Source of the DNA: Nitrospirota bacterium
GTDB taxonomy: Bacteria > Nitrospirota > Nitrospiria > Nitrospirales > Nitrospiraceae
Length of the DNA: 64,000 nt
Reading direction: 5' to 3'
Assembly (NCBI GenBank): GCA_963703955.1
Contig: CAVPGK010000010.1
Location: 160,001-224,000 of the forward strand
Shown here: positions 27,186 to 28,601 of the stretch, one piece after another
Numbering within the stretch: the first letter of the stretch is position 1
Layout: each line of letters begins with the position of its first letter
The notes under the pieces: generated by a model
What the model was told of the DNA's origin: nothing
The model's input: only the letters and a program-made list of their open reading frames with translations
Database searches by the model: none
Made by a program: the position numbers and the translations under genes

Positions 27186-27199
27186 CTTGTATCTTTACT

Positions 27200-27376
27200 T
27201 TTTCATGTATGAAAACATCGTCAAAGCCAACCAGGACGGGATAGATCGGAACTAACTTGGTCGCCGAGACCGTTCAATAGCATGGGTCATCCCGTTCTGC
27301 CTCCTCAAGAGCTCGAACAGTTGCCTGGGCTGGAAAGAGCCCGCATCATACGCAAGACCGAGCCGCGATGGAGGCG
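27200..27376 (+). ncRNA. IS110 bridge RNA (target-binding and donor-binding loops)
   Basis: Stem 27232-42/27289-99 encloses GAACTAACT and AATAG around the GGTC/GACC hairpin. Stem GCTCG/CGAGC encloses ACAGTTGC and CAAG around the GGGCT/AGCCC hairpin. Guides match the flanks and the element ends. RNA ends approximate. Confidence 0.85.
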
Positions 27377-27397
27377 TCTAGAAGAAAGGAGGCTGCG

Positions 27398-28351
27398 ATG
27401 GCGGAAGTGACACCCACCTTTGTCGGCATCGATGTGTCCAAAACACAGCTGGATGTGGCACTGCGTCCGTCGGGTGCCACGAAGTCTGTGCTCAACGACG
27501 ACCCCGGGATCAAGACCCTGGTGGAGTGGCTGGGTGTGGTCACCCCTGCGTTGATCGTGCTTGAAGCCACGGGGGGTATCGAACGGGCGGTGGTGCGGGC
27601 TCTGGTGGCAGCCGAGCTGCCCGTCACGGTGGCCAATCCACGTCAGGTGCGCGATTTTGCCAAGGCCACAGGGCAATTGGCTAAAACAGATACGCTCGAT
27701 GCTCAGATCTTGGCTCGCTTTGCCGAAGCGGTGCGCCCAGGGCTGCGCCCCTTGCCGGATGACATGACCGCGGCCCTGCGGGCGCTGCTCACCCGTCGAC
27801 GCCAACTCATCGAAATGCTGACCGCTGAAAAAAACCGGCTGAGTCGGGCTCCCCGACAAGTGCACAAGCGGATTGAGGCCCACATTGGCTGGCTGCAAAC
27901 AGAACTGGAGCGAGCCGATGCGGACCTCGATCAAACGATCCGTCAAAGTCCCATCTGGCGTGAGCAGGAAGATCTCCTCAAGAGTGTGCCGGGGATCGGG
28001 CCTGTGGTCAGTCGCACCGTACTGGCCGAGCTGCCTGAGCTGGGAAGCTTGAACCGCAAACAGATTGCGGCGCTTGTCGGAGTCGCCCCACTGAATTGGG
28101 ATAGCGGCACGCTGCGGGGGCGCCGCGCGATTTGGGGTGGTCGGGCGCACGTGCGGACTGCTCTCTACATGGCTGCGTTGGCTGCCAGCAGACATAATCC
28201 CGTGATCCGAGACTTTTACAGAAGGTTGCGTGCAGCGGGCAAAGCGCCTACCGTTGCCCTGGTTGCCTGCATGCGCAAGCTCCTGGTCATCCTCAATGCG
28301 ATGCTCAGACATCGCGTTCCGTGGCGGCCAGTAGTTGCTCAAATTCCTTGA
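27398..28351 (+). CDS. IS110 family transposase/recombinase
   Basis: RBS AAGGAGG; DEDD motifs GIDVSK, LEATG, KTDTLDA; Tnp domain [21 protein letters not shown]. Confidence 0.96.
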
Positions 28352-28601
28352 AACTGAACACAGTTGCTATTAAGTGTGCTGCAGGCCACCTGTGCAGCAT
28401 AGCGTGGTGACCTGAAAGCTCAACTGACGCGAAAGTCTACTGCAAACTCGCAGGGTTATCTAGTGGGTGGCCCTGCGTCGCCCGCCTGGATAGACGGTGA
28501 ATCCTGCAGTCTATCCAGCTCCCAGCCCGCAGTGGATCCCAGCAGACAACTTGCAGTCAGAGACGGTCCGCCGGGCTGTCTCCGTGTCTATTCGGAATGA
28601 G

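What the first reader, a model, noticed from the sequence alone, without database searches (positions are those of the whole stretch)
27186..28368. IS110 bridge-RNA element programmed against an integron recombination core
Seen: the left non-coding end folds into two internal-loop hairpins. Donor loop guides ACAGTTGC (27317-24) and CAAG (27353-56) match the circle junction ACAGTTG-CT-TGTAT. Target loop guides GAACTAACT (27249-57) and AATAG (27276-80) match the rejoined flanks cttCTAA-CT-ATT (6/9 and 5/5). That target is the reverse complement of AATAG/TTAG, the GTTRRRY-type crossover core at the start of the gene cassette. Known: IS621 uses the same loop layout with a CT core and a very similar donor (ACAGTAT-CT-TGTA, from memory); attC-targeting is known mainly for IS1111-group elements. 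Inference: an RNA-guided recombinase naturally retargeted to integron att cores, and a new bridge recombinase ortholog with readable guides.
Basis: partly seen in the sequence, partly recalled or inferred. Interest (0 to 1): 0.9.

Follow-up and report, generated by a model that had tools for sequence, protein, structure and literature searches.

The report
Bridge-RNA insertion sequence aimed at integron attI
This is an apparently active IS110-type jumping gene whose guide RNA matches the crossover core of the site that follows integron integrase genes in related bacteria, so it is a new member of a known RNA-guided family with an unusual natural target.

Summary
Window 27188-28368 is a 1181-bp IS110-group insertion sequence flanked by a duplicated CT core. 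It encodes an intact DEDD/Ser recombinase and carries a two-loop bridge RNA in its left end.

Across 54 relatives the two hairpins are supported by compensatory changes. Across 61 distinct relatives the loop guides covary with the flanks far beyond permuted pairings. In this lineage the effective target is 5+2+5 bases, ACTAA-CT-ATTGA.

The integron reading is also supported, by comparison rather than by function. The right flank is a decayed relic: the last 8 codons of an integron-integrase gene plus a ~190-nt spacer ending in ..ACTTAATAG|TTAGAAGG. In relatives with intact integrases the same kind of core lies 130-290 nt after the intI stop and is followed by ORFs and canonical attC sites. These are 'inverted' integrons.

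Two of three copies in this genome, one MAG copy and one soil-metagenome copy lie in such attI-type sequence. The third genome copy does not.

No intact integrase or cassette array was found in this genome, which is 82% complete. The element is a new member of a known kind, of moderate interest.

The parts
27186..27187 (+). Left copy of the CT core (the target dinucleotide, duplicated at both ends)
   Evidence: all three genome copies are bounded by ..AA-CT|TGTAT.. and ..ACAGTTG-CT|ATT..
27188..27397 (+). Left end (non-coding). It starts with TGTAT (right donor) and holds the -10-like TATCTT at 27190-27195, the bridge RNA, and the RBS AAAGGAGG at 27385-27392
   Evidence: The LE start CTTGTATCTT is conserved in most of the 73 relatives shown.
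27233..27298 (+). Target-binding hairpin. 5' loop 27249-27258 GAACUAACUU: effective left-target guide ACUAA plus core CU. Inner stem 27259-62 / 27268-71. 3' loop: right-target guide UCAAU-AG at 27274-27280, then CA (27281-2) in the handshake position
27300..27374 (+). Donor-binding hairpin. Left-donor guide ACAGUUGC at 27317-27324. Right-donor guide AUAC-(GC)-AAG at 27348-27356, which pairs discontiguously with CTTGTAT
   Evidence: The discontiguous 9-on-7 pattern is described for IS621 in PMC11208160 (passage read).
27398..28351 (+). IS110-family recombinase gene, 317 aa. An upstream in-frame ATG at 27368 would give 327 aa
   Evidence: DEDD and the Ser-Gly of the Tnp domain align with IS621. 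The residues are named in PMC11208158.
28348..28368 (+). Right end: -35-like TTGAAA (28348-53, overlapping the stop codon), left donor ACAGTTG (28360-66) and the right CT core (28367-8). In a circle the spacing TTGAAA-17 nt-TATCTT would form a junction promoter
   Evidence: CTTGACA..ACAGT(T/C)GCT is conserved in relatives. The promoter function is inferred.
28369..28583 (-). Integron relic. On the minus strand it reads: the last 8 codons plus stop of intI (28557-28583, GDSPADRL*), a ~190-nt conserved spacer, then the core ..CACACTTAATAG| which continues across the IS into TTAGAAGG at 27179-27185
26852..27169 (-). ORF of 105 aa with no Pfam match. It starts 16 nt beyond the core, in the position of a first cassette gene. 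It is followed by ORF163 (26360-26851)
   Evidence: The same arrangement is seen at three other insertions.
28602..29217 (-). vapB-vapC toxin-antitoxin pair lying where the integrase gene would be
   Evidence: PF09957, PF01850

Best explanation
Window 27188-28368 is an apparently active IS110-group insertion sequence, i.e. a bridge recombinase system.

How it most likely works.
- The element excises as a circle, which joins its right end to its left end across the CT core.
- That junction creates a TTGAAA-17-TATCTT promoter, which drives the left-end bridge RNA and the recombinase gene.
- The donor loop of the RNA (ACAGUUGC; AUAC..AAG) holds the circle junction ACAGTTG-CT-TGTAT.
- The target loop (ACUAA-CU; UCAAU-AG) holds a 12-bp site, ACTAA-CT-ATTGA.
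- The DEDD/Ser recombinase then exchanges strands at the CT.

What the site is.
- It is the reverse complement of TCAAT-AG|TTAGN. That is the crossover core of the first recombination site (attI position) found 130-290 nt downstream of integron-integrase genes in the 'inverted' integrons of this bacterial family.
- The right guide reads the conserved attI side. The left guide reads the TTAG of G|TTRRRY.
- The IS therefore lands on the dinucleotide next to the IntI crossover point, between the attI region and the first cassette gene, and is oriented against them.
- In this genome the sites hit are decayed intI-attI relics, so the insertions are probably harmless to the host.

Shown here: the anatomy, homology, structure, guide-flank covariation, multiple insertions and the integron context in relatives.

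Inferred: the circle, the promoter, expression of the RNA, the catalysis, and that the core is a working attI.
For: The element.
- Pfam PF01548 scores 90.6 bits and PF02371 72.8 bits. NF033542 scores 230.6 bits against a cut-off of 140. IS621 and ISCro4 transposase chains match at E about 1e-44, with DEDD and Ser-Gly aligned.
- Two copies are 100% identical over 1181 bp in different flanks, which points to recent movement.

The bridge RNA.
- In the consensus of 54 sequences, 16 of 28 pairs show compensatory changes.
- The guides track the flanks. Match rates at LT -1..-5 are 0.79-0.93, and at RT +1..+5 they are 0.83-0.98.
- The first handshake base, C, faces donor G7 in 51 of 53 loci.

The target.
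- The rejoined sites are TCTAA-CT-ATTAA, CATAA-CT-ATTGA and ATTAA-CT-ATTGA.
- L019, a copy from another phylum by its record title, sits in ACTAA-CT-ATTAA.

The integron link.
- The right flank belongs to a ~210-nt unit present in 25 of 161 genomes of the family. In 15 of 15 copies examined, the conserved 5' edge of the unit is ..AAC(T)|ATTAAGT, which is the IS target.
- The unit ends in the reverse complement of an integrase C-terminus. For all three longer fragments (3 of 21 loci had one) TIGR02249 is the best family, at 100.6-121.9 bits.
- TIGR02249 scores over its cut-off in 17 of 161 genomes.
- 14 of 18 parsed integrase loci have the AG|TT core 130-290 nt after the stop. Canonical attC candidates follow (GCCTAAC..GTTAGGC). 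In two long regions the IS-type motif is found at the attI position and not in the attC sites.
- The flank of copy 2 is homologous to the attI region of L160 and L164.
- An unoccupied paralogue at C21:137.4 kb carries an intI C-terminal relic. Its only NCBIfam hit is TIGR02249, at 17 bits.

Further insertions.
- Two distinct metagenome sites both read CCGCCTAA-CT.
- A soil contig joins the right end of the IS to ..ATACTGACCGGTATAGTACGCAG, an L160-type attI sequence.
- At 4 of 4 insertions where a left flank is available, an ORF on the other strand starts 14-36 nt beyond the core.
Against: - No intact integron integrase was found in this genome. The best TIGR02249 match is 62.4 bits and nothing reaches E<=1e-30. 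The assembly is only 82% complete.
- No convincing attC site lies beside the window copy, nor within ~1.5 kb of the L019, L171/173 or L172 insertions.
- Copy 3 lies next to a decayed phage-type integrase and a tRNA, in a site with no integron features. It is also the best sequence match in the genome, with 1 mismatch.
- With 39 sites in the genome within 2 mismatches, of which 4 are attI-like, 2 of 3 insertions in attI-like sites has a chance probability of about 0.03, by my own arithmetic. That is suggestive only.
- The window core GTTAGAA departs from GTTRRRY at its last base.
- 4 of the 18 integrase loci showed no such core.
- The identity of the site as a working attI rests on position and motif. 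The spacer's long inverted repeats are not a feature that I know from described attI sites.
- Rfam gave no bridge-RNA match. I cannot tell whether Rfam holds such a family.
Confidence: 0.72

Rival explanations
1. It is an ordinary IS110-group element whose 12-bp target merely happens to occur in a family-specific repeat. On this view the link to integrons is incidental: the element uses any multi-copy, harmless sequence as a landing pad, as other IS110 members use REP elements, and is not tuned to integron platforms.
For: - Copy 3 is in a non-integron site that is the best match in the genome.
- Many relatives of this IS sit beside REP-like hairpins (GTACCC..GGGTAC) and have quite different guides.
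- This genome has only relics and no working integron.
- IS110 elements that target REPs are cited in PMC11208160 (reference list seen) and in the abstract of PMC12288879 (search listing).
Against: - The target is not just somewhere in the relic. It is the conserved crossover core at the relic's edge.
- The same core follows intact integrases of several attI types that share little else.
- Insertions from at least four independent sources carry attI-type or GCCTAA-CT flanks.
- Both core variants, TCAATAG and TTAATAG, have matching guide variants in nature.
Confidence: 0.2
2. The element targets the R'' end (RYYYAAC) of attC sites of gene cassettes, as the IS1111-attC group does, rather than an attI-position site.
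For: - The left flanks read GCCTAAC|T in two metagenome insertions.
- Some attC sites of related integrons begin GCCTAACTAATCA.., which is within about 3 mismatches of the target.
- attC targeting by IS1111-group elements is documented (passages in PMC11187229, and PMC11616780).
Against: - Where right flanks are known they are intI-relic or attI-spacer sequence, not attC stems.
- The neighbouring ORF starts just beyond the core on the opposite strand, which is a cassette start and not a cassette end.
- In two long integron regions the motif occurs at the attI position and not in the attC candidates.
- The guide RNA lies upstream of the recombinase gene and the right end is only 17 nt long, so this is IS110-group anatomy and not IS1111 anatomy (PMC11208160 passage).
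Confidence: 0.05
3. The left-end hairpins are not a guide RNA. They would instead be a leader that regulates transposase translation, with target choice made by the protein.
For: Rfam reports no family.
Against: - Loop sequences change together with both flanks across 61 and 52 loci, while the stems are kept by compensatory changes.
- The layout equals that shown experimentally for IS621 (PMC11208160, passages).
Confidence: 0.02

Closest known systems
IS621 / IS110-group bridge recombinases (Durrant et al. 2024, PMC11208160; Hiraizumi et al. 2024, PMC11208158)
   Same: - A DEDD RuvC-like domain plus a Tnp domain with catalytic Ser-Gly.
- The guide RNA lies in the long left end, upstream of the gene.
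- The target loop comes first and the donor loop second.
- The core is CT.
- The left guides equal the top strand and the right guides are its reverse complement.
- The right-donor guide pairs 9-on-7.
- A junction promoter spans the core.
- The donor ACAGTTG-CT-TGTAT resembles the IS621 donor as I recall it. I did not confirm this in the text.
   Different: - About 36% identical over the phmmer alignment, by my own eye estimate, not a printed figure.
- The element is short, at 1181 bp.
- In this lineage only 5 left-target positions track the loop, whereas IS621 is described with a nine-base LTG.
- The right-target guide is 5+2, longer than the four-base RTG of IS621.
- The natural target is an integron core.
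IS1111-attC group (ISPa21, ISKpn4, ISPst6; Tetu & Holmes 2008; Post & Hall 2009)
   Same: These are DEDD-transposase elements of the same superfamily that insert orientation-specifically into integron recombination sites. They are RNA-guided (seekRNA; PMC11187229, passages) and can disrupt the site (PMC11616780, passages).
   Different: [quoted passage not shown]
- This element is of the IS110 group (guide upstream, 17-nt right end) and hits the attI-position core next to intI.
- The two original papers were not available to me. I cite them only from the reference lists.
'Inverted' chromosomal integrons of Treponema (intI transcribed toward attI and the cassettes)
   Same: The relatives' loci have the order intI, then core, then ORFs and attC sites, all in one direction. 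This is the atypical arrangement described for Treponema in PMC3607928 (passage read).
   Different: - The bacterial family is different.
- The spacer between the intI stop and the core is 130-290 nt and holds long inverted repeats.
- In this genome only relics remain.

Membership tests
IS110 family, IS110 group (bridge recombinase systems) | Recombinase with a DEDD RuvC-like domain and a Tnp (Transposase_20) domain | tested here: met
   PF01548 scores 90.6 bits (cut-off 29) and PF02371 72.8 bits (cut-off 21.3). NF033542 scores 230.6 bits (cut-off 140).
IS110 family, IS110 group (bridge recombinase systems) | Catalytic residues (D, E, D, D and the Ser-Gly of the Tnp loop) conserved | tested here: met
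   In the alignment to IS621 chain 8wt6_A, GIDvsK, lEATG, KTDTlDA and dSG align with the IS621 motifs. The residues are named in PMC11208158.
IS110 family, IS110 group (bridge recombinase systems) | Long non-coding left end upstream of the gene, short right end, no long terminal or sub-terminal inverted repeats | tested here: met
   The LE is 210 nt (27188-27397) and the RE is 17 nt after the stop. The criterion is from PMC11208160.
IS110 family, IS110 group (bridge recombinase systems) | Left-end RNA with two internal-loop hairpins, conserved by covariation | tested here: met
   One search gives z = -2.63. In one search, with 54 sequences, 16 of 28 pairs have compensatory changes.
IS110 family, IS110 group (bridge recombinase systems) | Loop guides match the target flanks and the element's own ends around a shared core dinucleotide | tested here: met
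   Window copy: donor 8 contiguous plus 7 of 7 discontiguous; target 4/5 + CT + 4/5.
IS110 family, IS110 group (bridge recombinase systems) | Circular intermediate with a junction promoter; RNA expressed and bound by the recombinase | not testable with these tools
   Only the sequence is seen: TTGAAA-17 nt-TATCTT across the joined ends, conserved in relatives. The contigs laid showed no RE-LE joint.
IS110 family, IS110 group (bridge recombinase systems) | Match to a curated RNA family | tested here: inconclusive
   There is no Rfam match at gathering score. At E<=10 there is only a weak antisense sX15 hit, E = 0.31. I do not know whether Rfam 15 holds a bridge-RNA model.
IS1111 group / IS1111-attC | Guide RNA in a long right end downstream of the gene; sub-terminal inverted repeats of 7-17 bp | tested here: not met
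   The right end is 17 nt and the RNA is upstream. The criterion is from PMC11208160.
Integron attI site (as the target) | First recombination site next to an integron-integrase gene | tested here: inconclusive
   Met in relatives: 14 of 18 parsed intI loci. In the window only an 8-codon intI relic adjoins it. No intact intI was found in this genome.
Integron attI site (as the target) | R-box core GTTRRRY at the crossover point | tested here: inconclusive
   The window has GTTAGAA, whose last base is not Y. Other sites of this genome read GTTATGC, GTTCGGC, GTTAGGC. Relatives read GTTAGGT, GTTAGCC, GTTATGC, GTTGGGC.
Integron attI site (as the target) | Followed by gene cassettes that end in attC sites | tested here: not met
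   For the window locus there is no convincing attC. Relatives do show them. An ORF does start 16 nt after the core.
Integron attI site (as the target) | Recombined by the cognate IntI | not testable with these tools

The most novel reading that the evidence does not exclude
A lineage of IS110-group bridge recombinases has a target loop tuned to the attI crossover core of the 'inverted' chromosomal integrons that are widespread in this bacterial family. Its guide variants (UCAAUAG and UUAAUAG) track the two core variants (TCAATAG and TTAATAG). On this reading an RNA guide co-evolves with the recombination site of a different recombinase, inserts on the dinucleotide beside the IntI crossover point, and can uncouple cassette arrays from attI and its promoter. 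It may also ride along with integrons between phyla, since copies occur in MAGs labelled as different phyla.
Probability: 0.45. Interest if true: 0.65.

Novelty: new member of a known kind. Interest (0 to 1): 0.5.

Why it matters
- It gives a natural bridge recombinase with fully readable 5+2+5 guides, two identical copies, and about sixty relatives whose guides and targets can be read off directly. That is useful comparative material for guide rules, for example which loop positions really count.
- It extends the known habit of DEDD-transposase elements of hitting integron sites. That habit was known for IS1111 elements and attC; here it is an IS110-group element and the attI position.
- As a by-product it shows that integron integrases with the inverted gene order, and many decayed intI-attI relics, are common in a family for which a 2022 survey of complete genomes listed only two CALINs (PMC9024848, passage read).
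- It does not change what is known of the mechanism.

Tried and rejected
- Rfam. No family matched the IS left end at gathering score, or the ~210-nt flank unit even at E<=10. The sX15 hit (E = 0.31, antisense) is taken as chance.
- I first considered the flank unit as a group II intron 5' end, a REP/MITE, an IS200/IS605 end or a giant attC. I dropped these once its 3' end proved to be the reverse complement of an integrase C-terminus. Its top-strand fold does not pair its two ends.
- My attC scan is a crude rule (RYYYAAC..GTTRRRY complementarity plus fold energy), not IntegronFinder's model. It found nothing convincing in the window: 69 loose pairs, of which 4 passed the filters and none lies beside the site. 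It also found nothing within 1.5 kb of three other insertions.
- The second handshake position matches the donor in only 17 of 53 loci, so only the first position is used as evidence.
- Sequencing runs. All four runs laid are contigs from soil metagenomes. They showed no empty-site joint and no circle joint at this locus. The only joints listed (27329 to 27922 in X5, and letters between 27054 and 28560) are weak, at side 20 and depth 2.4, and I do not use them.
- Literature. Searches for an IS110-group element at attI ('IS110', 'attI', 'integron', 'bridge RNA') and for Nitrospira integrons found no such report. The preprint 10.64898/2026.08.14.744561 has no occurrence of integron, attC or attI. 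This does not cover subscription journals. PMC2447020 (Tetu & Holmes) is not held.
- The search of earlier findings returned nothing for this genome.
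Full report
**1. What is there**

The region 27186-28368 is bounded by CT at both ends (27186-7 and 28367-8). It holds one long ORF. With the start at 27398, preceded by AAAGGAGG, the ORF gives 317 aa. Its matches are:
- Pfam DEDD_Tnp_IS110 at 90.6 bits and Transposase_20 at 72.8 bits.
- NCBIfam NF033542 'IS110 family RNA-guided transposase' at 230.6 bits, against a cut-off of 140.
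- The solved IS621 and ISCro4 transposases at E about 1e-44, with the DEDD residues and the Ser-Gly of the Tnp loop aligned. Those residues are named in PMC11208158 (passages read).

The same genome (G000, 28 contigs, 82% complete) holds two more copies. One, on C26, is 100% identical over all 1181 bp. The other, on C6, is 93% identical and has a broken frame: PF01548 scores only 25.3 bits on a 61-aa open frame. The three copies fix the ends exactly..AA-CT|TGTAT.. on the left and ..ACAGTTG-CT|ATT.. on the right. Two identical copies in different flanks argue for recent movement.

**2. The bridge RNA**

The 210-nt left end folds into two internal-loop hairpins: MFE -73.5 kcal/mol, z = -2.63, with 4 of 200 shuffles as good.

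I collected 78 related loci, at 58-82% protein identity and mostly Nitrospira-type MAGs by their record titles.
- 73 of them, plus the window, had 230 nt upstream.
- The target loop could be parsed in 72 of those 74.
- I dropped 4 misparsed rows (L068, L078, L084, L087). Two more (L083, L094) had no recognisable left end.
- That left 66 loci, of which 61 are distinct.

Structure. The consensus of 54 sequences is the same two hairpins, and 16 of 28 pairs are kept through changes on both sides.

Guides.
- The loop bases 5' of the core equal the left flank at a mean of 4.52 of 7 positions, against 2.97 +/- 0.13 in 2000 permutations (maximum 3.36).
- The reverse complement of the 3' loop equals the right flank at 4.52 of 5, with n = 52, against 2.11 +/- 0.15 (maximum 2.62).
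- The loci are related, so these are not clean probabilities. But the guides differ strongly between sub-lineages and follow their flanks.

By position.
- The match rate is 0.79-0.93 at LT -1..-5 but 0.16 and 0.09 at -6 and -7.
- It is 0.83-0.98 at RT +1..+5 and 0.08 at +6.
- The effective target in this lineage is therefore 5+2+5 bases. For the window element it is ACTAA-CT-ATTGA.

Donor side.
- ACAGUUGC equals the right end.
- AUAC-GC-AAG pairs discontiguously with CTTGTAT. This is the 9-on-7 pattern described for IS621 (PMC11208160, passage).
- The base after the right-target guide (C) faces donor G7 in 51 of 53 loci, as expected of a handshake base. The second such base fits in only 17 of 53.

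Joined ends. Across the joined ends the sequence reads TTGAAA-17 nt-TATCTT, and relatives keep CTTGACA..TATCTT. This fits the junction promoter described for the family (PMC11208160, passage). Rfam gave no match.

**3. The target**

The rejoined sites in this genome are:
- TCTAA-CT-ATTAA for the window copy.
- CATAA-CT-ATTGA for the C26 copy.
- ATTAA-CT-ATTGA for the C6 copy.

With the copies removed in silico, the genome has 39 sites within 2 mismatches of the predicted 12-mer: none perfect, 2 with one mismatch and 37 with two. All three occupied sites are among them.

The window's right flank is a ~200-nt repeat, also found on C21 (94% identical) and C1 (72%). The unit occurs in 25 of 161 genomes sampled from the same family, at 1-3 copies each (that tally includes the unpublished genomes G281 and G337). 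In 15 of 15 copies whose 5' end was recovered, the conserved edge is ..AAC then ATTAAGT-like (AACT in 14), which is exactly the IS target (one of the 15, L139, is from G281).

The other end of the unit is the reverse complement of an integrase C-terminus.
- In the window, 28557-28583 read GDSPADRL-stop on the minus strand.
- In 3 of 21 related loci a longer fragment survives. For all three the best NCBIfam family is TIGR02249, integron integrase, at 121.9, 106 and 100.6 bits on C-terminal pieces of 65-79 residues.

**4. Integrons in the relatives**

TIGR02249 matches over its cut-off of 265 bits in 17 of 161 genomes of the family, and at E<=1e-30 in 36 of 161. G000 has none (the tally includes G281). 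Its best match overall is 62.4 bits.

Of the 20 loci fetched, 18 could be parsed for the integrase stop; L159 and L161 could not.
- 14 of the 18 show a core of the form ..(ACT)YAATAG|TTAGSY, CATAG|TTAGCC, CATTG|TTAGC or TATAG|TTAGA 130-290 nt after the stop, followed by an RBS and an ORF in the same direction.
- 4 do not: L152, L158, L162 (which has only 193 nt available) and L165 (from G281).

Further downstream lie canonical attC candidates such as GCCTAAC..GTTAGGC of 56-98 nt. In two long regions the strict scan found 1 and 3 candidates against 0.38 in shuffles. There the IS-type motif sits at the attI position and not in the attC sites, apart from one extra look-alike in a coding stretch of L176.

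The gene order is thus intI, then core, then cassettes, all in one direction. This is the atypical arrangement described for Treponema (PMC3607928, passage).

On the integrase strand the window site reads CACACTTAATAG|TTAGAAGG, and the copy-2 site reads CATACTCAATAG|TTATGCC. The spacer of the copy-2 site is homologous to the spacer that follows the integrases in L160 and L164. An unoccupied paralogue at C21:137.4 kb has a 116-aa frame ending ..TTMIYMHVLKQVEGVRSPADALVQGLSPSQP-stop. Its only NCBIfam hit is TIGR02249 (17 bits, E = 0.0028). It is followed by TATACTCAATAG|TTCGGCC.

The IS core CT is the AG of that motif. The element therefore enters on the dinucleotide that includes the G of G|TTRRRY.

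**5. Other insertions of the same guide lineage**

- L019, from a MAG of another phylum by its record title and 82% identical in protein, sits in ACTAA-CT-ATTAA. Its flank resembles the L156-type spacer (..TATTAAGT[A/G]AGCCG..CAGCCTATC).
- A pattern scan of metagenome contigs gave 3 loci from 2 distinct sites. Both have the left flank CCGCCTAA-CT, which is GTTAGGCGG on the other strand. Their right flanks are missing or the element is truncated.
- In soil run X1 a contig joins the right end of the IS to ..ATACTGACCGGTATAGTACGCAG, an L160-type spacer. In X2 a 1190-nt contig gives another left flank..GAGTCTAA-CT.
- At all 4 insertions with a left flank (window, L019, L171/173, L172), an ORF on the opposite strand begins 14-36 nt beyond the core, where a first cassette gene would begin.

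**6. What argues against**

- G000 has no intact integrase, although it is only 82% complete.
- The window has no convincing attC beside the site, and the three other insertions have none within 1.5 kb. My attC scan is crude.
- Copy 3 lies beside a decayed phage-type integrase, a tRNA and a 24-nt tandem repeat, with no integron features.
- Given 4 attI-like sites among 39 candidates, 2 of 3 hits has a chance probability of about 0.03 by my own arithmetic. The outside insertions strengthen the case but were not sampled without bias.
- That the core is a working attI is inferred from position and motif only.
- The spacers hold long inverted repeats that I cannot explain.
- In two relics of G000 a toxin-antitoxin pair lies where intI should be.

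**7. Verdict**

The element is a bona fide, apparently active IS110-group bridge recombinase system. That is a known kind, and this is a new member. Its natural target is, with about 70-75% confidence, the crossover core of the attI-position site of the inverted integrons of this bacterial family.

The closest known parallel is the IS1111-attC group. Those elements differ in anatomy (guide downstream of the gene, sub-terminal repeats) and in target (attC) (PMC11187229 and PMC11616780, passages). My searches found no report of an IS110-group element at attI, but they do not cover subscription journals.

The interest is moderate. It is a neat natural example and a good comparative data set, but it adds no new mechanism.

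Noticed in passing
Relatives' loci L147-L166, L176, L177: Integron integrases (TIGR02249 over cut-off) occur in 17 of 161 genomes sampled from the window's family. Every locus where a core was found (14 of 18 parsed) has the 'inverted' order intI, then core, then ORFs/attC. A 2022 survey of complete genomes listed only 2 CALINs for the phylum (PMC9024848, passage).
   Followed up: partly
window 28369-28583; G000 C21:826-1029, C1:27320-27511, C26:923-958, C26:15690-15830, C21:~137.4 kb, C26:~89.75 kb (position read from the minus-strand index; the re-fetched stretch gave no hit): This genome holds seven intI-attI relics but no intact integrase. The ~210-nt piece (last 8-25 integrase codons, spacer and core) is kept in 1-3 copies in 25 of 161 related genomes. 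I cannot explain why just this piece persists or multiplies.
   Followed up: partly
window 28602-29217 (-) and G000 C26 ~15.85-16.1 kb: A vapBC pair in the window, and a RelE/ParE-like ORF beside copy 2, lie directly upstream of the attI-type spacer, in the place of the integrase gene.
   Followed up: no
window 26346-26359 (minus strand): Right after the stop of ORF163 the sequence reads GCCCAAC|GTTAGCT. These are abutting R''-like and R'-like boxes with nothing between them. It could be a collapsed attC or chance.
   Followed up: no
L160, L164, L148, L157 spacers between intI stop and core: The spacers begin and end with long inverted or direct repeats (for example TTATGCCGATCCGCATAAGA ... 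TCTTATGCGGATCGGCC). In L148 and L157 they fold into a ~16-bp stem that ends just before TAG|TTAG. They also hold a TTGACA-like box. These may be integrase-binding sites and a cassette promoter.
   Followed up: partly
G000 C6:159157-159236 (L010 4158-4237): A 24-nt tandem repeat (GTTGAAACTAACTCTTATGGAGGG, 3.5 copies) lies directly right of the degraded third IS copy, next to a decayed phage-type integrase and a tRNA.
   Followed up: no
61 related IS loci: The two loop bases farthest from the core match the left flank in only 16% and 9% of loci, which is below the 25% expected at random. This lineage therefore reads 5, not 7, left-target bases.
   Followed up: partly
L172 (metagenome contig) and run X3 (place 27275 C>T): A guide variant UUAAUAG exists beside UCAAUAG. 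These are the exact complements of the two attI core variants TTAATAG and TCAATAG. The sites occupied by the UUAAUAG variant could not be read.
   Followed up: partly
G089:C26:285-381 (L167): A ~100-bp relic of this bridge RNA (93% identical, from the left-target guide to the donor loop) survives in another genus of the family, cut off on both sides.
   Followed up: partly
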